A stretch of 64,000 nt of DNA from positions 4,579 to 68,578 of the forward strand of contig JAHJQX010000010.1 of NCBI GenBank assembly GCA_018818965.1, given 5' to 3'. Made by a program: the position numbers and the translations under genes. Positions 2,562-63,512 of this stretch are shown in pieces. The first letter of the stretch is position 1. Each line of letters starts with the position of its first letter. This DNA comes from Patescibacteria group bacterium. Its GTDB lineage: Bacteria; Patescibacteriota; JABMPQ01. The notes below the pieces were generated by a model. It ran no database searches. It worked only from the letters and a program-made list of their open reading frames with translations, and was not told where the DNA came from.

Positions 2562-4388
2562 ATGTGTGGAATAATAGGTTATGTCGGAAAAAAAGAAGCG
2601 CTGCCTATCCTCCTGCAAGGGCTACGACGCTTGGAATACCGCGGTTATGACAGTGCGGGAGTGGCAATAGCTAACAAAGGCAAGATCTGTCGGGTAAAGT
2701 CTGTCGGTCGAATAGATAAGTTAACGGAGAAGGCTAAAGGCAAAAATCTAGCTGGTACTATTGGCATTGCCCACACTCGTTGGGCTACCCATGGCGGGGT
2801 GACGGAGGTTAACGCCCATCCGCATACTTCTTGTGGCGACAAAATCACTCTTGTTCATAATGGCATTATCGAAAATTACCAAGAGCTTAAAGAAAAATTG
2901 AGCGCGAAGCATAAATTTCTTTCCGACACTGATTCGGAAGTAATGGCACATTTGATTGAAAGTTATTACCAAGATGACCTGCGCGCAGCGGTCGAGCAAG
3001 CGCTGGCTGAAGTACGTGGTACTTATGGTATCGCCGTGATGTCAAGTGACGAGCCAGACAAGATTATTATTGCCCGCCTGGGTAGTCCGATTGTAATTGG
3101 CCTGGGTCGGGATGAATATTTTGTGGCCAGTGATCCGACACCTTTACTACCGCACACTAAAGAAATGGTTTTTCTCGATGATGGTGAGCTAGCGGAGATT
3201 ACTAGTGAGGGAGTAAAGACATATAACCTAGAGCAGCACAGAGCTGTTAAAAAAGAAGTGGAGACAATCGACTGGGATGAAGCTAAGGCGCAAAAGCAAG
3301 GCTACCAGCATTTCATGTTTAAAGAGATCTCCGAGCAATCGCATGTTTTGCAAGATGCCATTCGCGGTCGCTACGACGAGGAGGAAGGCACGGCTCATCT
3401 TGGCGGTCTCAATATGACTGAGGAGGAAATGCGCAAGATTAATCGGGTGGTCTTTATCGCCTGTGGAACAGCTTCCTACGCGGCCATGATTGGAAAATAT
3501 GCTTTTGAGCGGTTGGCTGGGATCTCGACGGAGGTAGATGTTTCCAGTGAGTTTCGTTATCGTGATCCGGTAGTGGATAAGCACACACTAGTTTTTGCTG
3601 TCTCGCAATCGGGGGAGACTTTGGACACCCTGGCAGCTTTGCGTGAAGCCAAGCGACGAGGCGCCCAGGTACGAGGGATTATCAATTCGATTGGTTCGAC
3701 CATTGCCCGGGAAACGGATGGTGGTACCTATATCCACGCTGGCCCGGAACTAGCAGTTGCTTCGACTAAGGCGTATACCAATATGACGGCCATTATGTTT
3801 CTTTATGCTTTGCAATTTGGCCGACTACGAGGGGTATCGCTCGGAACAGGGAAAAAATTAATCAAAGCGCTCTTGGAAATCCCGACCAAGATAGAATCGA
3901 TTCTTGAGCAAAGTAACGAAATTAAAAAACTAGCTAAGAAATATAGTAAATATGAAGCTTTCTTGTATTTGGGACGAGGAGTTAACTTTCCCGTAGCTTT
4001 GGAGGGATCACATAAGCTTAAAGAGATTTCATATATCCACAGCGAAGCTTATCCGGCAGGCGAGATGAAGCATGGCGTCAATGCACTGCTCTCCGAAGAC
4101 TTTCCCGTTTTTGCGATTGCCACCCAGAATCAGCTGTACGAGAAAATGATCAGTAATATCGAGGAGGTAAAGGCGCGTCAGAGCAAAATTGTTATCCTGG
4201 CCAATGAAGGCGATGAAAAAATAGCCGATCTGGCTGATGACGTTATCTATATTCCCGAAACCATGGAGTTGCTAGAGCCCCTGCTTAATACTATCCCACT
4301 GCAAATCTTTGCTTATCATATGGCAGTTCTACTGGGGCGGGACGTTGACCGACCGCGTAATTTAGCCAAGAGCGTAACGGTTGAATAA
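2562..4388 (+). CDS. glmS: glutamine--fructose-6-phosphate aminotransferase (isomerizing)
   Basis: 608 aa. N-terminal MCGIIGY (Cys2 Ntn amidotransferase), two SIS domains and a C-terminal ...RPRNLAKSVTVE. Confidence 0.95.
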   Translation: MCGIIGYVGKKEALPILLQGLRRLEYRGYDSAGVAIANKGKICRVKSVGRIDKLTEKAKGKNLAGTIGIAHTRWATHGGVTEVNAHPHTSCGDKITLVHNGIIENYQELKEKLSAKHKFLSDTDSEVMAHLIESYYQDDLRAAVEQALAEVRGTYGIAVMSSDEPDKIIIARLGSPIVIGLGRDEYFVASDPTPLLPHTKEMVFLDDGELAEITSEGVKTYNLEQHRAVKKEVETIDWDEAKAQKQGYQHFMFKEISEQSHVLQDAIRGRYDEEEGTAHLGGLNMTEEEMRKINRVVFIACGTASYAAMIGKYAFERLAGISTEVDVSSEFRYRDPVVDKHTLVFAVSQSGETLDTLAALREAKRRGAQVRGIINSIGSTIARETDGGTYIHAGPELAVASTKAYTNMTAIMFLYALQFGRLRGVSLGTGKKLIKALLEIPTKIESILEQSNEIKKLAKKYSKYEAFLYLGRGVNFPVALEGSHKLKEISYIHSEAYPAGEMKHGVNALLSEDFPVFAIATQNQLYEKMISNIEEVKARQSKIVILANEGDEKIADLADDVIYIPETMELLEPLLNTIPLQIFAYHMAVLLGRDVDRPRNLAKSVTVE

Positions 4389-4390
4389 AT

Positions 4391-5044
4391 ATGAAATACA
4401 AAGCAGCCATCTTTGATATGGACGGGGTTTTGGTTGATAGTGAATATTATTGGCAAAAATTTGAATTAAAGATCTGGCAGCGTTTGGGAGTGGACACTAA
4501 TCAGGAATTTCGTGAGCAGATAGTGGGCTTGGGGATTAGTAGTATTGCCAAGCTTCTTAAAGAGGAGCATGACATAAATATTTCAGCGGATAAGTTGGCG
4601 GCTGAATTAAATGAAGAAGCCAAGCAGGTTTATCTAGAATATTGCGATTTGATCCCGGGAGTCACCGAATTATTAGATAAATTAAAAAACAACTCAGTCC
4701 AATTATCTTTAGCCTCAGCTTCGCCACAGAATTGGGTAGATATGGTGATAGATAGATTTAGCCTAAAAAAATATTTCTCCTTGACTTTATCAACTCGCAC
4801 TATGCAGATACCACCCAAGCCTGATCCAGCTGTCTTCATTCGGGCGATGGAGGAGATGCAGGTAAGTCCAAATACGACATTGATATTTGAAGATTCTAGC
4901 TATGGCGTGTTGGCTGGCAGCCGTAGCGGGGCAACGGTGGTAGCTGTCAAGGATGGTCGCTGGTTAACGGGTGATATTGAGCCGGCTGATTTGGTCATCA
5001 AGTCGTTTACGGATGAGAGGTTAGAAGAGTTTTTGATAGAGTAG
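4391..5044 (+). CDS. HAD-superfamily hydrolase (beta-phosphoglucomutase-like subfamily IA)
   Basis: 217 aa. Motif I FDMDGVLVDSE and the HAD motif III/IV region. Separated from glmS by only 2 nt. Confidence 0.8.
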   Translation: MKYKAAIFDMDGVLVDSEYYWQKFELKIWQRLGVDTNQEFREQIVGLGISSIAKLLKEEHDINISADKLAAELNEEAKQVYLEYCDLIPGVTELLDKLKNNSVQLSLASASPQNWVDMVIDRFSLKKYFSLTLSTRTMQIPPKPDPAVFIRAMEEMQVSPNTTLIFEDSSYGVLAGSRSGATVVAVKDGRWLTGDIEPADLVIKSFTDERLEEFLIE

Positions 5045-5046
5045 TC

Positions 5047-5197
5047 TGCAGTCATTCTGATATATTTTGAAGGATTTTGAGAGGTTGAGCGGGCATGGTT
5101 TCCCGATTCTGATCGGGAAGAGCGAAACCTCTCCCAAAGTTAGATTTCCTCGCCGGGGAAATCTAACGCTCCTTCAGGATGTATCAGAATGACTGCA
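5047..5197. repeat. 151-nt nested perfect-palindrome element (candidate structured RNA, or a MITE/REP-like repeat)
   Basis: The 16-bp terminal inverted repeat TGCAGTCATTCTGATA (5047-5062) pairs with 5182-5197. Inside it, GAGAGGTT (5079-5086) pairs with AACCTCTC (5126-5133), and this stem encloses TCCCGAT-tctg-ATCGGGA (5101-5118). A further perfect 11-bp stem GTTAGATTTCC (5139-5149) pairs with GGAAATCTAAC (5157-5167). The element begins 3 nt after the HAD gene stop and ends 27 nt before the glmM start. Confidence 0.45.
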
Positions 5198-5224
5198 AAT
5201 AAGACTGGTTGATAAACATAAATT

Positions 5225-6562
5225 ATGCCACACAAGCTATTCGGCACCGACGGTATCCGCGGAAAATATGGCGAGGAACCAGTCACACCGGCCACAGCAG
5301 CCAAGTTAGGTCGGGCAGTGGTGGATTACTTTGGTGGCGAGAATAAATCTCCCCAAATCGTGATTGGACGTGATACTAGAGAGAGTGGTTCTGAGTTAGA
5401 GAGTGCTTTGATTGAAGGCGTCACTTCTCGGGGCGGGAAAGTTATTCGCTTAGGCGTAGTACCAACCCCGACCGTAGCCTATATTACCAAAGTGCGATCA
5501 GCTGCAGCTGGTATAGTGATTTCTGCTTCCCATAATCCTTATTATGATAATGGTCTAAAAATATTTGCGGCTGACGGCTATAAGTTACCGGATGAGGTAG
5601 AAAAAGAACTAGAGAAATCGATTTTAGCAGATGATTATACTTTCACTAGTAAAATTATCGCGGATGGTGCTCAAAATAGTAATGAATATATAGAATTTGC
5701 CAAAGAGTCTGTTGGCGAATTGTCTCTCAAGGGGATGAAAATAGCCCTCGACTGTGCCAATGGCGCGGCATATAAATTGGCTCCGCAGATTTTCCGGGAA
5801 TTAGGAGCGGAAGTTGAGATAATAAACAATCAGCCTAACGGTAAAAATATTAACGATAATTGTGGCAGCCAGTTTTTGGCTGGCCTACAAGCCTCAACAA
5901 AAGAAAAAAACTGCGATATCGGCATTGCTTTTGATGGTGACGCTGATCGGGTGATTATTTGTGACGAGAAGGGCAAAGAATTGAACGGTGATCATATTTT
6001 GGCCCTGAGTAGCCTTGATTTGTTGGAGAAAGATGAGCTGATTGGCAAAACCGTCGTCGTAACTGAGTACAGCAATTTGGGCCTAGACAAATTACTGGAG
6101 TCACGGGGAGTTAAGGTAGTACGGGTATTAAACGGTGACCGATATGTTATTGAAGAGATGCGCAAAAACGGGTATATTTTAGGAGGAGAACGTTCTGGTC
6201 ATATTATTTTTGGTCAGCTAACTACGACGGGTGATGGTATTATTGCCGCCTTACAAATCGCATCGCTACTCAAAGAAAGAAATCAGTCACTTTCCGAGCT
6301 GGCGAGTGTTTTAAAAGAGTACTCTCAAGTTTTGCTTAGTGTGCCAGTCGCCGAGAAGAAAGATCTGTCTGAGTTGAGTATGACCCAACAGGCTGTTGAG
6401 CAAGCCAAGGAGGAACTAGCTGATCAGGGTCGAGTGTTGATAAGGTATTCCGGAACAGAGATGAAAGCACGAGTATTAGTGGAAGGACAAAGCCAAACGC
6501 AAGTCAATAAATTTGCTAATGAAATTGCCCAGACGTGGCAGAAAGAGGTTAATAATAATTAA
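5225..6562 (+). CDS. glmM: phosphoglucosamine mutase
   Basis: 445 aa. FGTDGIRG start, the phosphoserine loop ...SASHNP..., and the alpha-D-phosphohexomutase domains. Confidence 0.9.
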   Translation: MPHKLFGTDGIRGKYGEEPVTPATAAKLGRAVVDYFGGENKSPQIVIGRDTRESGSELESALIEGVTSRGGKVIRLGVVPTPTVAYITKVRSAAAGIVISASHNPYYDNGLKIFAADGYKLPDEVEKELEKSILADDYTFTSKIIADGAQNSNEYIEFAKESVGELSLKGMKIALDCANGAAYKLAPQIFRELGAEVEIINNQPNGKNINDNCGSQFLAGLQASTKEKNCDIGIAFDGDADRVIICDEKGKELNGDHILALSSLDLLEKDELIGKTVVVTEYSNLGLDKLLESRGVKVVRVLNGDRYVIEEMRKNGYILGGERSGHIIFGQLTTTGDGIIAALQIASLLKERNQSLSELASVLKEYSQVLLSVPVAEKKDLSELSMTQQAVEQAKEELADQGRVLIRYSGTEMKARVLVEGQSQTQVNKFANEIAQTWQKEVNNN

Positions 6563-6573: not shown

Positions 6574-8610
6574 ATGATAGACAATTGCCAAGAATTTGCT
6601 TCCGGTCACCGAAGTTGTCGGGGTTGCACAGCGGTGCCGCAGCCAATTCGCTATACTATTTCGGCGATGAAGGAAGAGGGGATCCCAGTTGTAATTGCTA
6701 ATGCTACGGGGTGTACTGAGGTTACCTCGACTATTTCACCTTATACCTGTTGGAATGTGCCTTATATACACAGCGTGTTTGCTAATGTTGCGGCCACCGC
6801 CTCCGGGATAGAGTCAGCCTACAAGGCGTTGGCCAAAAGTGGCAAACTTAAAGAGATAAATGGCGGTAAGGATATAAAAAAACCAGCTATTATTGCTCTC
6901 GCCGGTGATGGCGGCTCCTATGATATTGGTCTGCAAGCTCTCTCGGGAGCATTTGAGCGACGTCATGATTTTGTCTATATTTGCTACGACAACGAAGCTT
7001 ATATGAATTGCTTGTCTACGGATTCTCTGGTAATGACTGCAGCCGGATTGAAGAAAATTACTGAGGTAAAAAAAGGAGAAAAAGTATGCACTTTTGATCA
7101 GAAAGACTACAAGCTAGTTTTAAAGAAATGCACTGGCGTTTTTGATAATGGTATAAAACAAGTATATAATCTTAAAACCTTTCATCACGACATTAAGGCT
7201 ACTACCAATCATCCCTTTTTAGTATTACAGCGGGGAGGTCGGGGAGGAAAAAATAAATTTATTTGGAAAGTGCTTGGTAAAATCAAACCAGGGGACGAAG
7301 TGGTGGTATCGAAAAAAATAGACGAGGGTAAATCTTTTGATTTTCATTTTAAGAAAACAAAGGTCGGAGATTACAAAGTGTCTCATCTAAATAAAATTAT
7401 ATTACCGAAAAATTCCAGTCCGGACTTGATGAAATATCTGGGATTATATGTTGGTGATGGTTGGCTGCGAGAAAAAAAGGGAGAAGTTGGTTTTGCGTTG
7501 CCGGCTAACACTTCTGGCCGACGAGCTTTAGTTGCCTTACATCGTAAAATTTTTCAGAGTAAGGTAAAAACTGATGAACTATATGCTTATATTAATTCAG
7601 TTAATCTGGCTAAATTTATTAAGTCGCTCGGTTTTGGTCAGGGGGCAGAAAATAAGCGGGTACCGTTCTGGATTTTTACTTTGCCACAAAAAGAAAAGGA
7701 AGCTTTTTTGGAAGGACTGATGTTATCTGATGGATACAAGCATGGTAATAGCTGGCGATACGTTTCTGCTAGTGGAGGGCTATTGCAAACTCTACGTTTA
7801 TTACTGCAAACTTTTGATTATCGAGTGGGTGGTATCCATTGGCAAACTAAAAAGAAAGGCACCAAGGTGGTTTACCGCAGATTGCTTAAGGATGCTAAAT
7901 ATGGCTATATTTGCTTTAGTAAAAAGCGTAAGTGGAATTTAGAGAAATATCCCAACCAATATAAATATCAAAATTTCTTAGTTGATAATGACTATTTTAA
8001 TGTCGAAAAGGTAAAATCTGTAAAGCTAGTTGGTCGAGAACCAACATTGGATTTGAGAGTAGAGGGCGAACATAACTTTATTGCTGATGGGGTTGTAGTT
8101 CACAATACCGGCAATCAACGTTCTTCCGCTACTCCCTTTGGTAGCGCCACTTCTACCACCCCAGCGGGAAAAAAGATTGGCGGCAAACAACGCCAACGCA
8201 AAGATTTAACTAAAATAGCGGTCGCTCATAATATTCCCTACGTGGCTACTGCCGCTGTTAGCCACCGCGCTGATTTTATGACCAAAGTAAAGAAAGCCGT
8301 GGCGGTCGATGGGCCAGCATTTATTAATATCTTAGCCCCTTGCACTTTGGGCTGGAAATTTCCGGAGGATATGGGAATTACTATCGCGCGCTTGGGAGTT
8401 GAGACAAACTACTGGCCACTCTACGAGGTTGAGGACGGAGAATATAAGTTGAGTTATCAGCTAAAACAGCGCAAGCCGATCACGGAATTTGTTAAATTGC
8501 AGGGACGGTTTAAGCACTTATTTAAAGACAAGGATCAACTGGTTATAACAGAGATGCAAAAATATGTTGATGATCAATGGCGTCGGTTATTATCTTTGTG
8601 CGGTAAGTAA
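6574..8610 (+). CDS. porB: 2-oxoacid (pyruvate):ferredoxin oxidoreductase beta subunit (TPP-binding, PorB-like), interrupted by an intein
   Basis: Exteins 6574-7008 and 8107-8610 (about 312 aa together) carry the Cys cluster (CRGC...C) and the GDGG TPP motif. The YDNEAYMN|TGNQRSS junction is reconstituted by removing residues 146-511. Confidence 0.8.
   Translation: MIDNCQEFASGHRSCRGCTAVPQPIRYTISAMKEEGIPVVIANATGCTEVTSTISPYTCWNVPYIHSVFANVAATASGIESAYKALAKSGKLKEINGGKDIKKPAIIALAGDGGSYDIGLQALSGAFERRHDFVYICYDNEAYMNCLSTDSLVMTAAGLKKITEVKKGEKVCTFDQKDYKLVLKKCTGVFDNGIKQVYNLKTFHHDIKATTNHPFLVLQRGGRGGKNKFIWKVLGKIKPGDEVVVSKKIDEGKSFDFHFKKTKVGDYKVSHLNKIILPKNSSPDLMKYLGLYVGDGWLREKKGEVGFALPANTSGRRALVALHRKIFQSKVKTDELYAYINSVNLAKFIKSLGFGQGAENKRVPFWIFTLPQKEKEAFLEGLMLSDGYKHGNSWRYVSASGGLLQTLRLLLQTFDYRVGGIHWQTKKKGTKVVYRRLLKDAKYGYICFSKKRKWNLEKYPNQYKYQNFLVDNDYFNVEKVKSVKLVGREPTLDLRVEGEHNFIADGVVVHNTGNQRSSATPFGSATSTTPAGKKIGGKQRQRKDLTKIAVAHNIPYVATAAVSHRADFMTKVKKAVAVDGPAFINILAPCTLGWKFPEDMGITIARLGVETNYWPLYEVEDGEYKLSYQLKQRKPITEFVKLQGRFKHLFKDKDQLVITEMQKYVDDQWRRLLSLCGK
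7009..8106 (+). mobile_element. intein (366 aa) with a LAGLIDADG homing-endonuclease domain, inserted in the porB TPP motif
   Basis: Begins with Cys (CLSTDSLV, block A) and has TTNHPF (block B). Two LAGLIDADG motifs: LGLYVGDGW at about 7440 and LEGLMLSDG at about 7715. Ends ...VVVHN followed by Thr (+1). The insert is more AT-rich than the flanking extein. Confidence 0.85.
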
Positions 8611-8635: not shown

Positions 8636-9343
8636 ATGTCTGCCGCTAAAGCACAAACTACTATCAAATCCACTCCTGCTCCACCACCTCAGACTCCCAC
8701 CGAGCAACCCCCAGCTAGTAAAGGTAAGTCTAAGGGAGGCAAAATAGCTTGCAGCATCACTCTCGGTTGTTTAGTGGCGGCGTTGATTAGTGCTGTTTTG
8801 GGTTACTATATTTATCAACAAGTACAAAAGAGAGCCGAAGAGAAGCTGGAGGGAATCTCGTTTGCAGAGTTGGAGAAAAATTTAACCAATTTCCCTAGTA
8901 CAGAAGAATTAGATAAAATAGCCAAAAATGCTGCTGATGATTCAGCTAAATCGGCACAAAAATCAGGCCAAGTAGGAGAGGAATTGTCTGACGGCGAGGT
9001 GACTATCACAGTTAATTCTTCCCAGCGACAGGATAAAATAGGGGACAACACTCCGATGGCCGACTATGAATATATTGTAGTTAATGTTACTCTTAAAAAC
9101 GAACTGCAGCAGGAGATCTCTGTGTTCACCTCTAACTTTTTTCTCCGTGATGGCAACGCCAATCAATACTATGAGGCCTATCTAGAAGGAGATTCAGTTG
9201 AACAGCCGATCGCTGCCTGGCAGTACCTCTCCATCGGACAAAGTATAGTTGGTAATATAGTATTTGAAGCCAAGAAAGACGTCGGTGATCTCGATGTGAT
9301 GTATGATGGGGAGAAGGTTTTAGAATTTAAGCCAGTAAGTTAG
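8636..9343 (+). CDS. DUF4352-domain membrane-anchored protein
   Basis: 235 aa. Pro-rich N-terminus, one TM helix, and a C-terminal region (...YEYIVVNVTLKNELQQEISVFTSNFFLRDGNANQYY...) matching the DUF4352 pattern. Confidence 0.6.
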   Translation: MSAAKAQTTIKSTPAPPPQTPTEQPPASKGKSKGGKIACSITLGCLVAALISAVLGYYIYQQVQKRAEEKLEGISFAELEKNLTNFPSTEELDKIAKNAADDSAKSAQKSGQVGEELSDGEVTITVNSSQRQDKIGDNTPMADYEYIVVNVTLKNELQQEISVFTSNFFLRDGNANQYYEAYLEGDSVEQPIAAWQYLSIGQSIVGNIVFEAKKDVGDLDVMYDGEKVLEFKPVS

Positions 9344-9374
9344 TTTTTGTTATTCATATATTAATAAAACGAAC

Positions 9375-10388
9375 ATGGCTAAAAGAAAATATACTTGGCT
9401 TTGGATTTTACTGGGGGCGGTGTTAGTTGTATTGGTTTTGGGAATTACAGTTGTAGTGGGTATCGGGTATTTGGTAAATAAAAATTATGCAGTTGATGAT
9501 TATTTATCCTCTTCTGATTACGGCCTAACTAAAGGTTCATCGTCGGGGTATAGCTTGAGTGGTGCCAGTGATACTGAGTCAGCCCTAAGCGAGGAAAAAA
9601 CTTTGTCTAAATCTGCGGCTGAGCCATCCGCCTTAACTACCAGTAATTCTGCATCTTTAGACACGAGCGTTGACGAAGTTTATTCCGCTGCTAGCGATAT
9701 TTCTGAAAAGAAAGTAATTAAAACTGGCAACCTTTCCGTAACAGTAGAAAATGCGGGGGAAGCGGTTACTAAAATTACTGACGTGATAGACGACGAGGGT
9801 GGTTTTGTACAGAGCTCTAATGTCTATACTGCCTCTGATGATTCACAGTCGGCTACCGTCGTCGTAAAAGTCCCCGCCAAGGATTTTGAAAAGACAGTCA
9901 AAGATATCAAAAAACTAGTCAAAAGCGTAGAAAGTGAAAGTGTGTCGGGTCAGGATGTCACGGCCGAATATGTGGATTTGCAAGCTCAGCTGAAAAATTA
10001 TCGTGCTGAAGAGGAGCAGTACATCAAGATAATGGAGCAGGCGACTACGGTTGAAGACACCCTGAAGGTAGCAGACAAATTAGCCCGGGTACGAGGAAAT
10101 ATCGAACAGGTAGAAGGCAGGATCAAATATTTGGAAAATCAAACAGATTTTTCTACCATTACTATCTATTTGAGCGAGGAAACTAAGGTTAGTATACCCA
10201 CTAAGGAATGGAAGCCCTGGGAAAATGCCAAAGTAGCTTTTCAATATTGGGTAAAAGCTTTGCAGGGGTTAGTTGATGCCTCGGTCTGGATTATCTTGTT
10301 TGTCGGACCGGTAGTGATTGTGGCTCTGATAATAGTGTTGATCATTAGAGCAGTAATCAGAAAGAGAAAGAAAGCGAAAATAGAGTAG
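9375..10388 (+). CDS. DUF4349-domain protein with N- and C-terminal TM helices
   Basis: 337 aa. The core ...VKVPAKDFEKTVKDIKKLVKSVESESVSGQDVTAEYVDLQAQLKNYRAEEEQ...STITIYLSEE is a typical DUF4349 signature. Hydrophobic at both ends. Confidence 0.65.
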   Translation: MAKRKYTWLWILLGAVLVVLVLGITVVVGIGYLVNKNYAVDDYLSSSDYGLTKGSSSGYSLSGASDTESALSEEKTLSKSAAEPSALTTSNSASLDTSVDEVYSAASDISEKKVIKTGNLSVTVENAGEAVTKITDVIDDEGGFVQSSNVYTASDDSQSATVVVKVPAKDFEKTVKDIKKLVKSVESESVSGQDVTAEYVDLQAQLKNYRAEEEQYIKIMEQATTVEDTLKVADKLARVRGNIEQVEGRIKYLENQTDFSTITIYLSEETKVSIPTKEWKPWENAKVAFQYWVKALQGLVDASVWIILFVGPVVIVALIIVLIIRAVIRKRKKAKIE

Positions 10389-15221: not shown

Positions 15222-15292
15222 CTGGGGAGGAGGGATTCGAACCCCCGATCATGGAGCCAGAGTCCATTGCCTTACCGCTTGGCTACTCCCCA
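15222..15292 (-). tRNA. tRNA-Gln (anticodon CUG)
   Basis: Minus-strand sequence UGGGGAG UA GCC AAGCGGUAA GGC A AUGGA CUCUGGC UCCAU GAUC GGGGG UUCGAAU CCCUC CUCCCCA G. Has a U1:A72 pair and a 7-nt anticodon loop with U33 and CUG at positions 34-36. Closely resembles E. coli tRNA-Gln. CCA is not encoded. Confidence 0.9.
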
Positions 15293-22916: not shown

Positions 22917-23329
22917 ATTTTTATTTTTTTAATTAGTTTTGATGATTTATATATCTCCGGCTTATACGATCTTGCTCGTATTATTTTAATATTTTGGTTG
23001 CTTCCCTTAATATATCTTTCCAACTCACCGACAAACTTCCGCTGATCATAGCCTAAACAAATTATAGCTGGCTGGCGCTCACGGATTATTTGTAATTTAT
23101 CACCTCCCGACTGAGCAGCTATTACCTCATCAACTATTCCTTGTTTCTCAATCTCGGCCATCCGCTCAGTTTGTTTATGTATTGGATATTCGCCTTTGAT
23201 TGTCTTTACCGTCTCATCGTGAGCTACCACCACCGTTAGCTGATCACCATGCTCCTTGGCTTGGCGGAAAAAATCTAGATGACCCAGATGAAGAATATCA
23301 AAGGTGCCGAAGACCATTATTTTAATCAT
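22913..23329 (-). CDS. HxGH-motif nucleotidyltransferase (cytidylyltransferase-like; RibL/TagD-type)
   Basis: 138 aa. MVFGTFDILHLGHLDFFRQAK... carries the (T/H)xGH signature. Resembles glycerol-3-P cytidylyltransferase and the archaeal-type FAD synthetase. Confidence 0.7.
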   Translation of the reverse strand: MIKIMVFGTFDILHLGHLDFFRQAKEHGDQLTVVVAHDETVKTIKGEYPIHKQTERMAEIEKQGIVDEVIAAQSGGDKLQIIRERQPAIICLGYDQRKFVGELERYIKGSNQNIKIIRARSYKPEIYKSSKLIKKIKI

Positions 23330-25428
23330 AATCCTAACTCATCACTAATTTCCTGCATCGCCTTGAGGCTAAGTTCGATAAACTCATCTAACGATAATCC
23401 TAATTGATCACACTCTCCAATCATCTCACGCGACACTTTAGCGGCAAAAGACTTGTCTTTCATTTTTTTCTTAAGCGACTTGGCTTTGACGTTGGCTAGT
23501 TTTTTGTCTGGATGCACTAGAGCAGAAGCAAAAATCAAACCAGTGATACTCTCTGCACAAGCCACCGCATGATCGAGCTTAGTTTGCCGCTCAATCACCT
23601 TATTATATTCATAACTGTGAGCTTGGATAGCGTTGATACCAACTTCAGGAAACTTTTGCGCCCGGAGAATATCAGCTGTTACCTTACCATGCTCGGCTGG
23701 CTTATCTTGAGTCTCCTCCCAATCAAGATCGTGTAGTAAACCTGTTACTGCCCACAACTCCTCGTCCTCACCTAACTTTTTAGCCAAAGCTCGCATAATT
23801 ACTTCCGTCTCGCGGGAGTGAAGAATGTTTTTTTCGTCTTTCAAATGCTCTTTGAGTAGAGCAAACGCATCGTCGCGAGTCAGGGATAAATTAACTTTGG
23901 CCATTTTTTGAGATTTAGTTAGCAGGGTTTTATTTCTATCTGCAGTTGATGTCAGCCGGTGACCGTCGTCACCTTTGGGCTTCATGGTGGGGAACAAGAT
24001 CACTTCTTTGATCGAATTGGTATTGGTAAACAACATTGCCATACGATCAATCCCGATACCAATTCCAGTTACGGGTGGCATTCCATGCTCAATCGCTTCG
24101 ATAAATTCTTCGTCAGTCTGGTGGGCTTCGTCAAAACCAGATTGTTCTTTCTTTTTTTCCTCAACGAAACGTTGACGCAAATCAACCGGATCATTAAGCT
24201 CTGAATAATGATTGCCAGCTTCAGATCCGATAATGAAATGTTCGAAGCGCTCAACAAAACGAGGATCATCGGCGCATTTCTTGGCTAGGGGAGATGTTTC
24301 TACTGGGTAATTGTAAATGATGGTCGGCTGAATTAGTTTCTCCTCCACTTTCTCTTCAAAAATATAAGCAATCATCTCACCTGTGGTCTGGAACATGGCA
24401 AGCTCCTCTTTGTCTAGCCCCAACTTTAAGGCCTTTTCCCTGACCTGGTCACAGCTATCACCGATAGTAAAATCAGCTCCGGTATATTCTTTAATAGACT
24501 CGACCATAGTTAACCGCTTCCAAGGTCGTTCCAGATTAATCTTCTGTCCCTGATATTCAATCTCCGTTCCACCTAGCACTTCTTGAGCCGTCTGCAAATA
24601 GATCTCCTCCACCAAATCCATACTAAACTCATAGTTTTGGTAAGCCGTCATAATTTCTAGCAGAGTAAACTCAGGATTATGACTTAGATCAATGCCTTCA
24701 TTGCGAAAGTCCTTACAAAACTCAAACACTTTCTCAAAACCACCCACTATTAATCTCTTAAGATACAGCTCGTCAGAAATACGCAGATAAAGTGGAATAT
24801 CCAAGGCATTATGATGAGTCTTAAATGGCTTAGCAAAACCGCCACCATAAATCGTTTGCAAAATAGGAGTGTCGACTTCCATATACCCTTTAGTAATCAG
24901 AATCTGCCGAATTTTTTCAATCATGGCGGAACGAAGTTCAAATCTTTTTCTAACTTCCGGATTGACTGCCAAATCCAAATAACGCTTACGAAATCTTTCC
25001 TCGACATCTTTTAAACCATGCCATTTTTCTGGCAATGGCTTTAGGCTCTTAGTGAGAAGGGAATAGTCAGATACTTCGAGAGTCTTTTCGCCCTTCTTAG
25101 TAGTAAATAATTTACCAGTCAGCTGCACAAAATCTCCCATATCAAGACTTGAGAAAGATTTATACTTGTCTTCGCCAAGGATATCTCGTCGTAAATAAGC
25201 TTGGATTCGAGCAGTACCATCTTGCACCTGGACAAAAGTAGATCCCCCATGGGAGCGAATAGCATAAATCCTTCCCACTAAGGATATTTCCCGTCCCTTG
25301 AGCTTAGCAAAATCAGCCAACATTTCCTGGCAAGTGTTTGTCCTTTTGGCTTTAGCCGGATAGGGATTTAATTTTGCCTGCTTAATTTTATTGAGTTTGG
25401 CAAGACGTATTGCTGACTCTTCCGCCAT
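23326..25428 (-). CDS. lysS: lysyl-tRNA synthetase (class II) fused to a C-terminal HD-domain phosphohydrolase
   Basis: 700 aa. Residues 1 to about 500 are a complete LysRS (OB anticodon-binding domain, motifs 1-3, ...GIGIDRMAMLF...VILFPTMKP). Residues about 520-700 carry H...HD...H...D (ILHSRE...LLHDLDW...AHSYE...LDHAV), typical of HD/YqeK-like hydrolases. No stop separates the two parts. Confidence 0.9.
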   Translation of the reverse strand: MAEESAIRLAKLNKIKQAKLNPYPAKAKRTNTCQEMLADFAKLKGREISLVGRIYAIRSHGGSTFVQVQDGTARIQAYLRRDILGEDKYKSFSSLDMGDFVQLTGKLFTTKKGEKTLEVSDYSLLTKSLKPLPEKWHGLKDVEERFRKRYLDLAVNPEVRKRFELRSAMIEKIRQILITKGYMEVDTPILQTIYGGGFAKPFKTHHNALDIPLYLRISDELYLKRLIVGGFEKVFEFCKDFRNEGIDLSHNPEFTLLEIMTAYQNYEFSMDLVEEIYLQTAQEVLGGTEIEYQGQKINLERPWKRLTMVESIKEYTGADFTIGDSCDQVREKALKLGLDKEELAMFQTTGEMIAYIFEEKVEEKLIQPTIIYNYPVETSPLAKKCADDPRFVERFEHFIIGSEAGNHYSELNDPVDLRQRFVEEKKKEQSGFDEAHQTDEEFIEAIEHGMPPVTGIGIGIDRMAMLFTNTNSIKEVILFPTMKPKGDDGHRLTSTADRNKTLLTKSQKMAKVNLSLTRDDAFALLKEHLKDEKNILHSRETEVIMRALAKKLGEDEELWAVTGLLHDLDWEETQDKPAEHGKVTADILRAQKFPEVGINAIQAHSYEYNKVIERQTKLDHAVACAESITGLIFASALVHPDKKLANVKAKSLKKKMKDKSFAAKVSREMIGECDQLGLSLDEFIELSLKAMQEISDELGL

Positions 25429-46342: not shown

Positions 46343-48211
46343 CTATATAGTATCAGCAATCCTCTCCTTGTCAAGCATAATTTCAATTTTTTTCTCGGTG
46401 CGCGGGATCTTTTTGACCCAGAATGGCCAAAGAGAAATTTCCACGCTAACTATGTTCGGATTGCCCAGAATATGATCACGTGCTTCCTGTTCAGTTTGAC
46501 CCCTAATATCCCTTTTCATCTTCTGCTCATCAAGACGCCAGGCTACTTCTTTACTAATCGACACCTTGATAGTAACTGCTTCTTGGCCATTAAAACCTTG
46601 TTCTACTTTCTCAAAAGCTATACCCTGTTCAATATCATCATTAATAATATATTTCTCGGTGGGAACCAATCGGTCAAATTTACTAGCTAACAACTGTGAA
46701 AAATCGTTTCGGGAAAAAGTTAAGCCGGTAGCCCGGACGCTAACTTTCATGTCAAACTCATCAGCTTCGGTATCGGCCTCAGCGCTGGCTTCAACCTCGG
46801 CGATTTCTTGCTCAAACATCCCGGACGGCAATATTTTATCACCACTTAGATCGTTGGTTAATTTTTTAGTTGCTTCGGCGGCAGCGGTAGTTACTAGTGA
46901 CTGTTTAGCCTCACTCAAATTTTCGGCTGATACTACTTTTACTTTGCGTGAAGAGCCGCCAGTAAACTGAGTTGTACTTTTGCCATAAATGTCACTTTGC
47001 TTACTCTGAGGTAGACTAGCAATAACAAAATTGGCTGGTCCAATATTGTAATCTTCCCCCGCTGTCCCCGCCTCCACTCGCACTTTTACTTGTCCTGGAA
47101 TGGCTTCACCCTCTTCTATGTGTGCTCCCGGTATTACTACTTCTTGCAAAGTAATATAAACCAAGCCATTAGTGATTAGTTGAGACGAGGTTGGTAAAAG
47201 TTGTGCCTCGGAAGAAAAACTATTATGCAAAACTACCTGCCCCCGAGCTTTATCACCAACTTCTTTTTCGCCAGTGGCCTCAAATTTCTTTTTGTCACTT
47301 TTACTTTCAGTTGTTACTAGTTCTCCCGGAATGGTTGCCTTTTCGGTATCAACGTCAGTAATATTTTGACTAATCACCATTTCAAAAGAAGTGGAAAATG
47401 GCTCTGTTTTAGGAACCAAGGATATTTCCGCTTTCGGTAAAACCAAAAAAAACACTAGCCCTAAAACTACCAAACTAATGGTAAAGAAAAGCGAGAAAGA
47501 TTTTATACTCAGGGAAGGCAGAAGAAATACTCGCCCTTTAACTGACTTTTTTGTTTTTCGACGGGAAGAAAGCGGACGCAAGTTAGACTGCTTAGCTTCA
47601 ACGGTAGTAGCTGGATTCGACGAAGGAGCTGCTGGCGGATGTTTGGGTTTGCTCTTTTTCCTGGCTGTAAATATCTTAGTCAAAACAGATAACTCGCTTT
47701 TACTTCTCTCTTTGGGAGAACGGGGCGTGTATTTTTTAGCTTTGCGTTGAAAAAGACGAGAATTATCTAGCCGAATTTCCTGGAACATATTGCTCTCCGA
47801 CTGGTCATCATCTGGTTCATTACCATCTCTAGATTGATAATCTGGGATTGAGTCTATCGGCTCTGCTTCCCCTATTTCTCCAACTTCGTCAGCTGATTCC
47901 GTTTCAGCTTCTGGCTCACTTAGATTTTCAATTTCCCCTGTCTCCCTAGCCAATTTTCCCGACAGCCTGGCTTGAGTAGTCAGACCCGCTTTTTTGGCCA
48001 GGCTCCTTCCGCCCACGTCAGTTGTTACCAAAATAACTTTCTTACCTAAAATATCAGCTTGCCGCCGCAGTAGTTTTAAATTGACAATGCTTTGCACAAT
48101 AGAAGCGCGACGCGGCACTAAAACATAAACAGTGCTACTGCTAGCACTGGCAATTTTATCAACCGCCGAAGTTATTTCTTCGTCTGTTTCTAAATAAACC
48201 TTGTCGCTCAT
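46343..48211 (-). CDS. large hypothetical bitopic membrane protein co-located with ftsA
   Basis: 622 aa. About 95-aa N-terminal cytoplasmic domain (MSDKVYLETDEEITSAVDKIAS...VILVTTDVGGRSLAKKAGL), an acidic then basic disordered linker, one TM (VFLLPSLSIKSFSLFFTISLVVLGLVFFLVLP) and an extracytoplasmic domain of about 370 aa. Starts 7 nt after the ftsA stop. Confidence 0.55.
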   Translation of the reverse strand: MSDKVYLETDEEITSAVDKIASASSSTVYVLVPRRASIVQSIVNLKLLRRQADILGKKVILVTTDVGGRSLAKKAGLTTQARLSGKLARETGEIENLSEPEAETESADEVGEIGEAEPIDSIPDYQSRDGNEPDDDQSESNMFQEIRLDNSRLFQRKAKKYTPRSPKERSKSELSVLTKIFTARKKSKPKHPPAAPSSNPATTVEAKQSNLRPLSSRRKTKKSVKGRVFLLPSLSIKSFSLFFTISLVVLGLVFFLVLPKAEISLVPKTEPFSTSFEMVISQNITDVDTEKATIPGELVTTESKSDKKKFEATGEKEVGDKARGQVVLHNSFSSEAQLLPTSSQLITNGLVYITLQEVVIPGAHIEEGEAIPGQVKVRVEAGTAGEDYNIGPANFVIASLPQSKQSDIYGKSTTQFTGGSSRKVKVVSAENLSEAKQSLVTTAAAEATKKLTNDLSGDKILPSGMFEQEIAEVEASAEADTEADEFDMKVSVRATGLTFSRNDFSQLLASKFDRLVPTEKYIINDDIEQGIAFEKVEQGFNGQEAVTIKVSISKEVAWRLDEQKMKRDIRGQTEQEARDHILGNPNIVSVEISLWPFWVKKIPRTEKKIEIMLDKERIADTI

Positions 48212-51778: not shown

Positions 51779-52861
51779 TTACTTTTTTATTATTCCCCCT
51801 CCTAATAATTCATTCTGATGATAAAAAACTACCGACTGGCCCGGCATGACCGCTCGTTGAGCAGTAACAAGATCAACTCGGTATCCTTGGGGATCAGCAG
51901 TGACCTCAGCCGCCACTGGTTTTGTATTATACCTCACTACCGCCTCCGCCACCAGAGGCCAAGTTGGCTCCTGCCCACTCACCCAATTAATTGTTCTACA
52001 TTTAACAATTCGAGAATATAGTTTTTTATCCTGCGGATTATTAGTAACTACTAAATTATTATTAGGCCAATCTCGATTCACCACATAATATGGCCCCTTA
52101 CCGCCAACCCTTACTCCTTTCCTCTGGCCAACAGTATATGAATGTAGCCCGTGATGCTGGCCAATCACCTTTCCAGATATGTCGACAATTGACCCTTCTT
52201 CCGCCCCACCTAAATGCCTGTCTACAAAATCTTCGACTGTATTACCAACAAAACAGATATCCTGGCTTTCTTTGACAGCAGTTACAGGCAAATCTAGCTG
52301 GAAAGCAATTTTTCTGACTTCACTTTTTTTATATCCTCCTAGGGGAAATAATAAATACTTAAGCTGCTGCTGGGTTAAATTATAGAGAAAATATGATTGA
52401 TCTTTTTTAACATCCTTAGCCTTAAAAAGCTTATATTTACCCTTGCTCTCACCCTTTTCTACGTAGTGCCCCGTCGCCAAACAATCAAATCCCAACTCTC
52501 TGATCTTATCAAGAAGCAAACCAAATTTTATCTCACGGTTACAAACTACGCAAGGATTAGGCGTATGGTGTTGCCGATATTCAGAGAGAAAATTGTCCAC
52601 TACTTGCTCTTTAAATTCCTTTTTAAAATCCAAGGAGTAAAAAGGAATTTTCAACTTGTTCGCCACCGCTCGCACCCGCTTTTCTGCTGCACTAGAGCAA
52701 CAACGATTCTCTCGCCGACAGCCAGACTGATCCTGCCAAAAGTACATAAAAAAACCAGTCACATCACAGTCACTTTTTTGTAACAGAGCAGCGGCCACTG
52801 ATGAATCTACTCCTCCTGACATAGCTACCGCCACCCGAAGTCGACGTTTGTTTCTCATCAT
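51779..52861 (-). CDS. mnmA: tRNA-specific 2-thiouridylase MnmA
   Basis: 360 aa. PP-loop SGGVDSSV, with catalytic Cys residues in the ...CCSS... region and a downstream conserved Cys. Confidence 0.9.
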   Translation of the reverse strand: MMRNKRRLRVAVAMSGGVDSSVAAALLQKSDCDVTGFFMYFWQDQSGCRRENRCCSSAAEKRVRAVANKLKIPFYSLDFKKEFKEQVVDNFLSEYRQHHTPNPCVVCNREIKFGLLLDKIRELGFDCLATGHYVEKGESKGKYKLFKAKDVKKDQSYFLYNLTQQQLKYLLFPLGGYKKSEVRKIAFQLDLPVTAVKESQDICFVGNTVEDFVDRHLGGAEEGSIVDISGKVIGQHHGLHSYTVGQRKGVRVGGKGPYYVVNRDWPNNNLVVTNNPQDKKLYSRIVKCRTINWVSGQEPTWPLVAEAVVRYNTKPVAAEVTADPQGYRVDLVTAQRAVMPGQSVVFYHQNELLGGGIIKK

Positions 52862-54426
52862 TACGAACGCTGGTCGTTAATTTTGACTACTTGGCCAGGT
52901 TTTATTCCGGCTCCTGATTTGCGACTCGGCCGCGAGTCAACTTTAGCTGGTTCGGTAGCTTTTTTCTGGTTACTGTTCCGCCCCCCGAGAGCAGTGGCGA
53001 AAGCTTTTTTAAAAGGCTGGTGAACTTTAGTATCCGGGGATGGTTGCGACGATCTATTAGATGTGATTGATCTATCTTTTGGTCTCCGATCCCTGTCCGC
53101 TGGTGCTCTATCAATCTTTTTCTCCTCGCTCTCTTCCTCCATTACCCCACTCCAACGAGCAATTTTATCTTCAACCACGTCTCGCTTCTTAGCATAACGC
53201 TCGCGCGAGATTTCAACAATTTTATCTCTGTTCCCCTCTGTTTCCCACAAAGGTGGTAGGGTCATAGCCGAAAAAGCCTGACTAGCCACCCCTTCTATCA
53301 TTAACTTTAAATATATGCGGTACTTAGTCAGATTAACTAGGTCAGTTTCGTCGAAAATTGGCTCAAATTCTTTAACTAGAACTTCGGCATCAGCTGCCCC
53401 GATTCGAAAACAGACAATCGTACCGACATTGCCAAACACAGCGTAGCGAACTTCTTCGGCTAGTTGATCAATATACTGGTGAGCCATTATCAAATCTAAG
53501 TGATACTTACGCGCTTCGGACAAGATATCAGCAAAACTTTCCGTCGCAAAATTTTGGAACTCATCGACATAGAGATAAAAATCGGCTCGTTCTTCCTCGG
53601 GAATATCAACTCGACTCATTGCTGCCAACTGGATTTTGGTAATTACCATCGCTCCAAAGAGAGCCGAGGCATCCTCACCTACCCTTCCCTTGGCTAAATT
53701 AAGTAATAGAATCTTCCGGTTATCCATGATGTCACGCATATCCAGAGTTGACTTAGACTGACCCACAATATTTCTGATCAAGGAAATTGACAAGAACTGA
53801 CCAACTTTATTCTGGATTGGAGCAATGGCTTCAGCCATAAATCTATCAGGATACTTCGAGAATTCATCTATCCAAAAAGACTTCACTACTGGATCAGTCA
53901 CCTTCTTGACCACTTTATTGCGAAAAGTCTTGTCCGTCAGCATTTTCATAATACCCAGTAGGGTGCTGCCAGGATAATCCATCAGAGCTAGAATAGTATT
54001 ACGCAGCACATATTCCAAACGCGGACCCCAAGAATCAGCCCAGATCTTTTTAAATACACCCAGCAGTCCTGACGCCACTAAATGCTTGTGATCAGGATCA
54101 ATATTCTCCATCACATTGAAAGCAATTGGATTATTAACGTCGCCAGGATTAAAATAGACAACATCGTTAATTCGGCTGGCGGGAACATAATCTAACATCC
54201 GATCAGCAAACTCACCATGAGGATCAACCACGCAGACTCCATTGCCAGCCTTAATATCAGAAATCACCATGTTCTCCAGCATGGTCGTTTTACCCATACC
54301 CGTTTTTCCGACCACATACATGTGCCGCCGTCGGTCATCAGTTCTAATACCAAACTTTCGACTTTGACCACGGAAATTGGTCTCGCCAAACAGGGTAACG
54401 TCTGATTGGGTTTTGTGTTTTTCCAT
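52861..54426 (-). CDS. TraD/VirD4-like (type IV coupling protein family, FtsK/HerA superfamily) P-loop ATPase, soluble form with a disordered basic C-terminal tail
   Basis: 521 aa. Walker A VVGKTGMGKTT and Walker B LYVDEFQNF. A TraG-D_C-like region (...ARKYHLDLIMAHQYIDQL...). The last roughly 100 aa are low-complexity Arg/Lys/Ser/Pro. Its stop overlaps the mnmA start (TAATGATG). No TM helix of its own. Confidence 0.6.
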   Translation of the reverse strand: MEKHKTQSDVTLFGETNFRGQSRKFGIRTDDRRRHMYVVGKTGMGKTTMLENMVISDIKAGNGVCVVDPHGEFADRMLDYVPASRINDVVYFNPGDVNNPIAFNVMENIDPDHKHLVASGLLGVFKKIWADSWGPRLEYVLRNTILALMDYPGSTLLGIMKMLTDKTFRNKVVKKVTDPVVKSFWIDEFSKYPDRFMAEAIAPIQNKVGQFLSISLIRNIVGQSKSTLDMRDIMDNRKILLLNLAKGRVGEDASALFGAMVITKIQLAAMSRVDIPEEERADFYLYVDEFQNFATESFADILSEARKYHLDLIMAHQYIDQLAEEVRYAVFGNVGTIVCFRIGAADAEVLVKEFEPIFDETDLVNLTKYRIYLKLMIEGVASQAFSAMTLPPLWETEGNRDKIVEISRERYAKKRDVVEDKIARWSGVMEEESEEKKIDRAPADRDRRPKDRSITSNRSSQPSPDTKVHQPFKKAFATALGGRNSNQKKATEPAKVDSRPSRKSGAGIKPGQVVKINDQRS

Positions 54427-58511: not shown

Positions 58512-58553
58512 TTAAAGAAGGGGTTAACCTGCTCTGAATTATATACCAAAAAG

Positions 58554-60866: not shown

Positions 60867-61058
60867 CCAGTTTAGAGCGCACTTCGCTGTGTGCTTTTTT
60901 TACAACAAAACCCTTTCGCCAGGGGTTAATTTTATTTATGGGAATTACTAGAAAATATTAGAATCTGTTTGGTAAAAAATGGCTTACAGCCCCAAGTGGT
61001 AATTTTGTTGGATTTGGGATACAATAAATTAGTGTTGGGTAAAAAGAAATATACTCAA

Positions 61059-63477: not shown

Positions 63478-63512
63478 CCAAAAAAGGCTTCAATAAGCCT
63501 TTTAAAATCGCA
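63478..63512 (-). terminator. intrinsic terminator after tRNA-Lys
   Basis: Minus strand: GCGATTTTAA-AAGGCTT-attg-AAGCCTT-TTTTTGG. Confidence 0.55.

What the first reader, a model, noticed from the sequence alone, without database searches (positions are those of the whole stretch)
7009..8106. LAGLIDADG intein splitting the TPP motif of a PorB-like oxidoreductase subunit
The ORF is 678 aa where a beta subunit is about 310 aa. Residues 146-511 start with Cys, carry the block B motif TTNHPF and two LAGLIDADG motifs (LGLYVGDGW and LEGLMLSDG), and end HN followed by Thr. Removing them yields ...YDNEAYMN-TGNQRSS..., the conserved TPP/substrate loop. The insert is also more AT-rich than the exteins. 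An intein in porB is uncommon and marks an active homing element in this otherwise minimal genome.
Basis: partly seen in the sequence, partly recalled or inferred. Interest (0 to 1): 0.6.

Follow-up and report, generated by a model that had tools for sequence, protein, structure and literature searches.

The report
Homing-endonuclease intein inside a PorB gene
A self-excising protein element (an intein that carries its own DNA-cutting enzyme) interrupts the active-site loop of a pyruvate:ferredoxin-oxidoreductase beta subunit in an uncultivated Patescibacteria bacterium; it is a textbook intein in an unusual host gene, and close relatives show the same site empty, or holding a shrunken intein.

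Summary
ORF 6574-8610 (+) encodes 678 aa, and nt 7009-8106 encode a 366-aa insert. The insert starts with Cys, has TTNHPF (block B) and two LAGLIDADG motifs, and ends VVVHN followed by Thr. Pfam and NCBIfam intein and LAGLIDADG models match it. A confident AlphaFold model (pLDDT 92) is closest to solved endonuclease-bearing inteins (TliVMA, PI-PkoII, PI-SceI). With the insert removed, the 312-aa product aligns without a gap across the junction to solved PFOR and oxalate-oxidoreductase beta subunits.

All 80 best genome homologues are contiguous at the site, so the insert is not a native domain. The same intein sits at exactly this site (YMN|C...VHN|TG) in all 120 listed hits of 173. These come from Omnitrophota, Aerophobetes, Patescibacteria, DPANN and other archaea, and intein lengths run from 145 to 371 aa.

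Syntenic relatives of this genome show an empty site (L088) and a 165-aa mini-intein (L003). Both the exteins and the splicing domain are under strong purifying selection.

It is a new member of a known kind. Current endonuclease activity is plausible but not shown. One side observation stays open: porB here lacks the adjacent porG, porD and porA genes that almost all homologues have.

The parts
6574..8610 (+). porB precursor ORF (678 aa, 76.2 kDa), starting 11 nt after the glmM stop codon
   Evidence: NCBIfam PorB model NF008819 matches in two stretches on either side of the insert.
6574..7008 (+). N-extein (aa 1-145). Carries Cys15, Cys18 and Cys47 (putative [4Fe-4S] ligands) and ends ...YDNEAYMN.
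   Evidence: 90% identical to L003 with pN 0.048 against pS 0.73.
6904..6993 (+). TPP/Mg-binding motif GDG-X26-N (aa 111-140), intact and 5 residues upstream of the insertion point
   Evidence: alignment to 1b0p_A and 9bt4_C
7009..8106 (+). Class-1 intein, 366 aa, 41.9 kDa, pI 9.8
7009..7383 (+). N-terminal Hint (splicing) lobe, with Cys1 (block A) and the invariant Cys41
   Evidence: TIGR01445 covers intein aa 1-72. This lobe is retained in the L003 mini-intein. C1 and C41 are invariant in A1.
7201..7218 (+). Block B, TTNHPF (intein Thr65...His68)
   Evidence: T65, N67, H68 and P69 are invariant in 38 family members
7384..7986 (+). LAGLIDADG homing-endonuclease domain (precursor aa 271-471), precisely the segment missing from the mini-intein of relative L003
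   Evidence: 201-aa gap; Pfam LAGLIDADG_3; alpha/beta elements in the model; fold matches to TliVMA, PI-PkoII and PI-SceI
7435..7461 (+). LAGLIDADG motif 1, YLGLYVGDG (catalytic Asp = intein D150)
   Evidence: G149, D150 and G151 invariant
7651..7665 (+). NKRVP (endonuclease block D-like; intein Lys216 invariant)
   Evidence: Aligns with 'enkripefvft' of PI-PkoII.
7705..7734 (+). LAGLIDADG motif 2, FLEGLMLSDG (catalytic Asp = intein D241)
   Evidence: G236, L237, D241 and G242 invariant
8038..8106 (+). Blocks F and G, EPTLDLRVEGEHNFIADGVVVHN (Asp348, His365, Asn366)
   Evidence: TIGR01443; invariant columns
8107..8610 (+). C-extein (aa 512-678), starting with the Thr+1 nucleophile, TGNQRSS...; includes the APCTLGW Cys
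   Evidence: 77% identical to L003 with pN 0.136 against pS 0.735.

Best explanation
Nt 7009-8106 encode a canonical class-1 intein with an embedded two-motif LAGLIDADG homing endonuclease. It is inserted in frame into the porB-type beta subunit of a 2-oxoacid (most likely pyruvate):ferredoxin oxidoreductase of a Patescibacteria (CPR) bacterium. The insertion lies between the residues equivalent to D. africanus PFOR Asn996 (substrate pocket) and Thr997.

Shown here: the insert has every splicing block and both endonuclease motifs, and orthologues lack it. Excising it restores a contiguous, highly conserved active-site loop. The host gene and the splicing domain are both under purifying selection.

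Inferred splicing mechanism: the 76-kDa precursor is translated. Cys1 makes the N-S acyl shift, assisted by block B Thr65/His68. Thr+1 attacks the thioester, then Asn366 (with His365 and block F Asp348) cyclises. This releases a 41.9-kDa intein and a 34.4-kDa PorB, which can only then bind substrate and TPP correctly.

Inferred homing mechanism: the endonuclease domain (Asp150, Asp241, Lys216) cuts intein-free porB alleles at about ...TATATGAAT|ACCGGCAATCAA..., and repair copies the intein in. In this lineage the intein was already present in the common ancestor shared with L003 and has been inherited vertically. L003 has since lost the endonuclease domain, and L088/L089 carry an empty site.
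For: Profile matches: Intein_splicing, LAGLIDADG_3, intein_Nterm and intein_Cterm.

PDB sequence hits to VMA, PI-PkoII, DnaB and GyrA inteins.

AF2 model with pLDDT 92.1 and pTM 0.89. Its best Foldseek matches are 7qsu (TliVMA intein, E=3e-22, TM 0.70), 7qss, 7qst, 2cw7 and PI-SceI.

The extein-only sequence aligns without a gap over the junction to 9bt4_C (E=1e-75) and 5c4i_C (E=5e-71). It matches the NCBIfam PorB model as one stretch, 4-306 of 312, at 378 bits.

80 of 80 best genome loci are contiguous at the site.

C1, T65, H68, D150, K216, D241, D348, H365 and N366 are invariant in 38 full-length family members.

All listed family members with a visible junction share the site: YMN|C (a few YAN|C or YEN|C) and VHN|TG. 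Intein lengths are 145-371 aa.

Three states occur at one syntenic locus: full-length (window), 165-aa mini (L003), and empty (L088/L089).

Against L003, pN is 0.05-0.14 and pS about 0.72-0.73 in both the exteins and the Hint lobes.

The endonuclease domain is as conserved as the splicing lobe: 61% against 58.5%.

Inteins are more alike than their host C-exteins in 96% of 666 pairs, and the two identities are only weakly correlated (rho=0.21).

The role of Asn996 comes from PMC5020499.
Against: No experiment: splicing and DNA cleavage are inferred from conserved residues only.

There is no sign of recent mobility. The closest full-length intein is 66-69% identical. No pair in the family combines very high intein identity with low extein identity. 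Synonymous sites against the nearest relative are saturated.

The GC shift is modest, about 1.7-1.8 SD.

The spliced product scores 378 bits, below the curated PorB equivalog cut-off of 405.

No porA, porD or porG was found in the 64-kb window or in the relatives' loci. The host enzyme's substrate, and even its partner subunits, are therefore not established.
Confidence: 0.9

Rival explanations
1. The intein splices, but its endonuclease is no longer active or is not used. On this reading it is a fixed, vertically inherited passenger at a late stage of the homing cycle, not an active homing element.
For: It was present in the common ancestor shared with L003, at a divergence where synonymous sites are saturated. 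The family shows repeated endonuclease loss, with inteins of 145-325 aa at the same site. The nearest full-length relative is only 66-69% identical.
Against: Both catalytic Asp residues and Lys216 are invariant. The endonuclease domain is as conserved as the splicing lobe. Empty target sites with nearly identical DNA exist in relatives, so homing opportunities exist.
Confidence: 0.3
2. Conditional protein splicing: the intein is kept because it gates maturation of an oxygen-sensitive enzyme. For example, a reversible disulfide between Cys1 and another intein Cys could allow active PorB to form only under reducing conditions.
For: Cys41 is invariant in 38 family members, and the [KR]CxG[VI]F motif occurs in 72 of 86 hits. 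The insertion sits in the substrate pocket, so the precursor must be inactive (PMC5020499). Redox-trapped inteins are known in other hosts (own knowledge; not checked here).
Against: No structural or experimental evidence exists. Relatives do without the intein.
Confidence: 0.08
3. The insert no longer splices, and porB is an inactivated relic gene.
For: porB is not next to porG, porD or porA. NCBI annotates the protein only as hypothetical.
Against: The ORF is intact and all splicing residues are present. pN is far below pS in the exteins and the Hint lobes. The cofactor-binding Cys residues and the GDG...N motif are kept.
Confidence: 0.03
4. Residues 146-511 are a native accessory domain of this PorB, or a bacterial intein-like (BIL) domain.
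For: None beyond weak PT-HINT and Hint Pfam hits, both below their cut-offs.
Against: Homologues are contiguous at the site. The terminal HN plus Thr+1, and the insertion into a conserved active-site loop, are intein features.
Confidence: 0.01

Closest known systems
The same PorB intein allele in metagenomic Omnitrophota, Aerophobetes, Patescibacteria, and DPANN and Thermoproteota archaea (e.g. P0001-P0060; loci L004-L006)
   Same: Identical insertion site: YMN|C (a few YAN|C or YEN|C) and VVHN|TG. 55-69% identity over the full 366 aa, with the same blocks and the same endonuclease.
   Different: Those examined (L004-L006) sit in canonical porG-porD-porA-porB clusters, whereas this one is in a solitary porB after glmM. 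None is close enough (69% or less) to indicate recent transfer.
Mini-intein allele of the closest relative (P0093, L003)
   Same: Same syntenic locus and same site. Exteins are 77-90% identical and the Hint lobes 74%.
   Different: It lacks the 201-aa endonuclease domain, leaving a 165-aa intein.
Endonuclease-bearing VMA inteins of Thermococcus litoralis and Pyrococcus horikoshii (PDB 7qsu, 7qss, 7qst), PI-PkoII (2cw7) and PI-SceI (1vde, 1lws)
   Same: Hint splicing domain plus an inserted two-motif LAGLIDADG endonuclease. Foldseek E=3e-22 to 1e-10 and TM up to 0.70-0.74; sequence E=5e-9.
   Different: Only 13-24% identity. The host proteins differ (V-ATPase subunit A, DNA polymerase). The +1 residue here is Thr.
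Four-subunit PFOR beta subunit (PDB 9bt4_C) and Moorella oxalate oxidoreductase beta (5c4i_C)
   Same: The spliced extein aligns over 278-295 residues, including the TPP motif, the Cys ligands and the junction loop.
   Different: The solved proteins have no intein. The window protein scores just below the PorB equivalog cut-off (378 against 405 bits), and its partner subunits were not located.

Membership tests
Intein (class 1, Hint superfamily) | Block A: Cys/Ser/Thr as first residue | tested here: met
   Cys146 of the precursor (TGC, 7009-7011). Invariant in 38 relatives.
Intein (class 1, Hint superfamily) | Block B: TxxH | tested here: met
   T65-T-N-H68 (TTNHPF); T65 and H68 invariant. TIGR01445 scores above its cut-off.
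Intein (class 1, Hint superfamily) | Blocks F and G: conserved Asp, penultimate His, terminal Asn, and Cys/Ser/Thr at +1 | tested here: met
   ...LDLRVEGEHNFIADGVVVHN|T. D348, H365 and N366 are invariant. TIGR01443 scores 26.4 bits against a cut-off of 15.6.
Intein (class 1, Hint superfamily) | Insert absent from orthologues, and the exteins rejoin into a contiguous conserved sequence | tested here: met
Intein (class 1, Hint superfamily) | Hint fold | tested here: met
   AF2 model at pLDDT 92. Foldseek hits to full inteins and mini-inteins (DnaB, GyrA, RecA).
Intein (class 1, Hint superfamily) | Protein splicing demonstrated | not testable with these tools
   Needs expression and detection of 34.4-kDa and 41.9-kDa products.
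LAGLIDADG homing endonuclease (intein-associated, two-motif) | Two LAGLIDADG motifs, each with the catalytic acidic residue | tested here: met
   YLGLYVGDG (D150) and FLEGLMLSDG (D241), both invariant. Pfam LAGLIDADG_3 scores 25.7-28.8 bits against a cut-off of 22.5.
LAGLIDADG homing endonuclease (intein-associated, two-motif) | Alpha/beta endonuclease fold inserted in the Hint domain | tested here: met
   The domain boundaries are defined by the natural deletion in L003.
LAGLIDADG homing endonuclease (intein-associated, two-motif) | Site-specific cleavage of the intein-less allele | not testable with these tools
   Candidate target from L088: GGTTATATGAAT|ACCGGCAATCAACGCTC.
PorB / 2-oxoacid:ferredoxin oxidoreductase beta subunit | TPP-binding GDG...N motif and Cys ligands of the proximal [4Fe-4S] cluster | tested here: met
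   GDG-X26-N at aa 111-140. Cys15, Cys18, Cys47 and the APC Cys align with D. africanus PFOR and 9bt4_C.
PorB / 2-oxoacid:ferredoxin oxidoreductase beta subunit | Score above the curated NCBIfam PorB equivalog cut-off (405 bits) | tested here: not met
   The spliced extein scores 378.3 bits; relatives P0125 and P0127 score 371 and 366. PorB is the best-scoring family, but substrate specificity is not assured.
PorB / 2-oxoacid:ferredoxin oxidoreductase beta subunit | Encoded with the alpha (PorA), gamma and delta partner subunits | tested here: not met
   No PorA, PorD or PorG by tblastn in the 64-kb window, L001-L003 or L087-L089. The rest of the genome could not be searched.
Bacterial intein-like (BIL) domain | Hint domain in a non-conserved, variable protein region, usually lacking the canonical C-terminal HN and +1 nucleophile | tested here: not met
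   Canonical HN|T, and insertion in a conserved catalytic loop.

The most novel reading that the evidence does not exclude
The intein is not just a parasite. It is retained as a post-translational switch: because it splits the substrate pocket of an oxygen-sensitive enzyme, splicing would release active PorB only under reducing conditions. The switch might be gated by a reversible disulfide involving Cys1 and the family-invariant Cys41. This would be in a CPR clade where porB has also been uncoupled from porG, porD and porA.
Probability: 0.08. Interest if true: 0.6.

Novelty: new member of a known kind. Interest (0 to 1): 0.3.

Why it matters
Surveyed inteins sit overwhelmingly in replication, repair and nucleotide-metabolism proteins: 83% of bacterial and 75% of archaeal intein hosts (PMC4760082). 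An intein family in a central anaerobic energy-metabolism enzyme widens that picture.

The family is shared by ultra-small bacteria (Patescibacteria, Omnitrophota) and DPANN archaea. Inteins are more similar to each other than their host genes are. This makes the family a usable marker of gene flow between these co-occurring, uncultivated lineages.

The empty, mini and full-length series at one syntenic locus is a clean natural snapshot of the homing cycle. It also supplies a ready-made target sequence for testing the endonuclease.

There are practical consequences for annotation. The window protein is annotated only as 'hypothetical protein'. Many family members are mis-started at the Met just before the intein and are named 'LAGLIDADG family homing endonuclease', which hides PFOR from metabolic reconstructions of these genomes.

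Tried and rejected
(1) About 26 of the 120 intein hits are roughly 540 aa and start 'MNCLS...'. I considered that these might be genuinely split or N-extein-less genes. I rejected this for the two loci checked: in L004 and L005 the N-extein is encoded directly upstream in the same frame with no stop. They are start-site miscalls.

(2) I tried to reach the rest of the 94,948-bp source contig to look for porA. The look-ups with two ORFs near the window's end found no exact product, and the glmS look-up returned only the short L002 contig.

None appeared among the 120 listed of at least 8,000 hits, so this is uninformative.

(4) A viral-contig scan with the intein alignment found only distant inteins (29% identity or less over the full length) in other genes. 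L147 shares only the block F/G segment, in an unrelated protein. There is no evidence for a viral carrier.

(5) Literature searches found no paper describing a PorB or PFOR intein. The terms were intein combined with pyruvate ferredoxin oxidoreductase, ferredoxin oxidoreductase, Patescibacteria and candidate phyla radiation. The supplement of the 2016 intein survey is not held. This shows absence from the searched library only.

(6) No other intein was found in the ten largest other ORFs of the window.

Full report
**Observation.** The window has an intact 678-aa ORF at 6574-8610 (+). Translating it shows ...ICYDNEAYMN | CLSTDS... at residues 145/146 and ...DGVVVHN | TGNQRSS... at residues 511/512. 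The coordinates 7009-8106 therefore bracket exactly 366 codons, from a Cys codon to an Asn codon, and a Thr codon follows. TTNHPF, YLGLYVGDG and FLEGLMLSDG are at the stated positions. The insert is AT-richer than the exteins: GC 36.7% and GC3 31.4%, against 46.2% and 44.4%. The shift is moderate, about 1.7-1.8 SD below the 53 genes of the window, and 1.7% of equally long windows are as low.

**Is it an intein?** Several independent lines agree.
- Pfam Intein_splicing (E=2.3e-15) and LAGLIDADG_3 (E=1.4e-5) match above their gathering scores. NCBIfam intein_Nterm and intein_Cterm match above their cut-offs.
- Intein-containing DnaB, GyrA, RNR, VMA and RtcB models match only in their intein parts.
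- Sequence search of the PDB finds VMA inteins, PI-PkoII, and DnaB and GyrA mini-inteins.
- An AlphaFold2 model built on 38 family sequences is confident (pLDDT 92.1, pTM 0.89). Its best PDB fold matches are endonuclease-bearing inteins: TliVMA 7qsu (E=3e-22, TM 0.70), PhoVMA, PI-PkoII and PI-SceI. Mini-inteins follow, matching the two Hint lobes.
- In the family alignment the following are invariant: Cys1, Thr65 and His68 (block B), Asp150 and Asp241 (the two LAGLIDADG acidic residues), Lys216 (NKxIP), Asp348 (block F), and His365 with Asn366 (block G).

**Is the host a PorB, and is the insert foreign to it?** With residues 146-511 removed, the 312-aa product aligns without a gap across the junction. 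The best matches are the beta subunit of a four-subunit PFOR (9bt4_C, E=1e-75; 'cvdneaymntgiqrss') and oxalate oxidoreductase beta (5c4i_C). It matches the NCBIfam PorB model as a single stretch, but at 378 bits, just under the 405-bit equivalog cut-off. 'PorB-like' is therefore the right wording.

The GDG-X26-N TPP motif is aa 111-140. The intein sits five residues later, between the equivalents of D. africanus PFOR Asn996 and Thr997 (numbering derived). Asn996 lines the substrate pocket and rotates when pyruvate binds (PMC5020499). The precursor should therefore be catalytically dead until it is spliced.

All 80 best loci from the species-level genome collection are contiguous at this point. 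So are all the closest extein homologues except the one with a mini-intein. The 'native domain' reading is refuted.

**The family.** A search with the intein alone gave 173 hits, of which 120 are listed. Every listed hit in which a junction is visible has it at the same site: YMN|C (a few YAN|C or YEN|C) at the N-terminal junction and VHN|TG at the C-terminal one. Named sources are:
- Omnitrophota, Aerophobetes, Patescibacteria and Endomicrobiia;
- one Proteobacteria-labelled and one Actinomycetota MAG;
- many archaea: Nanoarchaeota, Woesearchaeota, Aenigmatarchaeota, 'ainarchaeum' and Nitrososphaerota.

Intein lengths form a series: 365-371 aa (full), 192-325 aa (partly deleted) and 145-177 aa (mini). 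This points to repeated endonuclease loss.

Among 37 full-length members, inteins are more alike (mean 61%) than the host C-exteins (48.6%) in 96% of pairs. The two identities are only weakly correlated (rho=0.21). The closest PorB relatives of the window's extein are intein-free. This patchiness fits horizontal spread by homing followed by decay. However, no pair suggests a very recent transfer.

Against more than 7,766 PorB clusters, the intein is rare in frequency, but it is not a one-off.

**This lineage.** The protein is NCBI MBU1177704.1, 'hypothetical protein KJ903_00625 [Patescibacteria group bacterium]', on a 94,948-bp contig. The same syntenic locus, glmS-(HAD)-glmM-porB-DUF4352-...-peptidase U32, is seen in three states:
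- the full intein (window, L001, L002);
- a 165-aa mini-intein that lacks exactly precursor residues 271-471 (L003, P0093);
- an empty site (L088/L089, P0125, 74% identical).

The empty-site DNA is GGTTATATGAAT|ACCGGCAATCAACGCTC. The window's flanks are nearly the same: GCTTATATGAAT|ACCGGCAATCAACGTTC.

Between the window and L003, synonymous sites are saturated (pS about 0.72-0.73). pN is only 0.05 in the N-extein, 0.14 in the C-extein, and 0.14 and 0.08 in the two Hint lobes. Host gene and splicing domain are thus both under strong purifying selection, and the intein predates the split of these two genomes. The endonuclease domain is as conserved across the family as the N-terminal splicing lobe (61% against 58.5%). 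That argues it is, or recently was, functional, but this is inference.

**Mechanism (inferred from established class-1 intein chemistry).**
1. Cys1 makes the N-S acyl shift.
2. Thr+1 carries out the transesterification.
3. Asn366 cyclises.
4. An O-N shift follows, giving 34.4-kDa PorB and a 41.9-kDa basic (pI 9.8) endonuclease.
5. The endonuclease would cut empty porB alleles and be copied in by repair.

**Unresolved side observation.** In 78 of the 80 genome loci, and in L004-L006, a porA homologue lies upstream of porB, usually as porG-porD-porA. This includes the Patescibacteria locus L020. The two remaining loci have almost no upstream sequence. In the window, L001-L003 and L087-L089, tblastn finds no PorA, PorD or PorG at all. 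The clade's porB is therefore solitary yet conserved. Its partners may lie elsewhere in the genome, which I could not search.

**Comparison with what is known, and novelty.** This is a canonical bifunctional intein. What is less usual is the host. Surveyed inteins concentrate in COG categories L and F (PMC4760082). I found no paper in the library describing a PFOR or PorB intein, although JGI's automatic annotation already labels some family members 'beta subunit/intein/homing endonuclease'.

**Verdict.** It is a new member of a known kind.

Noticed in passing
window 6574-8610 and the whole 64-kb window; L001-L003, L087-L089: porB is solitary. No porA, porD or porG homologue is detectable in the window or in the loci of four related Patescibacteria genomes. 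By contrast, 78 of 80 other genomes (including Moraniibacteriota L020) have porA, usually porG-porD-porA, upstream of porB. The solitary gene is nevertheless under strong purifying selection.
   Followed up: partly
L004 5597-7626, L005 5560-7599; proteins P0001, P0003, P0013, P0015 and others: About 26 of the 120 listed family members are annotated as roughly 540-aa 'LAGLIDADG family homing endonuclease' or hypothetical proteins starting 'MNCLS...'. In the two loci checked, the N-extein is encoded in frame directly upstream. These are start-codon miscalls that hide a PFOR beta subunit.
   Followed up: partly
window 7129-7131 (intein Cys41, motif KKCTGVF): A non-catalytic Cys in the N-terminal Hint lobe is invariant in 38 full-length family members, and its motif is present in 72 of 86 hits. 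It does not align with a Cys in the VMA inteins. A possible structural or redox role was not tested.
   Followed up: no
window 2562-6562, 8636-10388: porB is embedded in a conserved glmS-HAD-glmM-porB-DUF4352-DUF4349 arrangement, and it starts 11 nt after the glmM stop. A DUF4352 or DUF4349 membrane-protein gene follows porB in all four related loci.
   Followed up: partly
window 23326-25428 (-): A class-II Asp/Lys/Asn-type (tRNA-synt_2) aminoacyl-tRNA synthetase with a C-terminal HD-domain fusion (699 aa).
   Followed up: no
window 46343-48211 (-), 60969-63371 (+), 54439-55713 (-): Large ORFs (621, 800 and 423 aa) with no Pfam match at E<=1e-4. The neighbouring ORF 52861-54426 is a TrwB/VirD4-like coupling ATPase.
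   Followed up: no
window 58552-58980 (-): Bacterial RNase P RNA class A (165 bits). tRNA-Gln at 15222-15292 and tRNA-Lys at 63512-63586. These confirm a bacterial chromosome context.
   Followed up: no
L147 about 5001-5420 (IMG/VR contig 3300009149_000266): A viral-contig protein carries at least two unrelated inteins. One of them ends EEHNFIADGVVVHN|T, nearly the same block F/G as the PorB intein, but it sits in a different host protein.
   Followed up: partly
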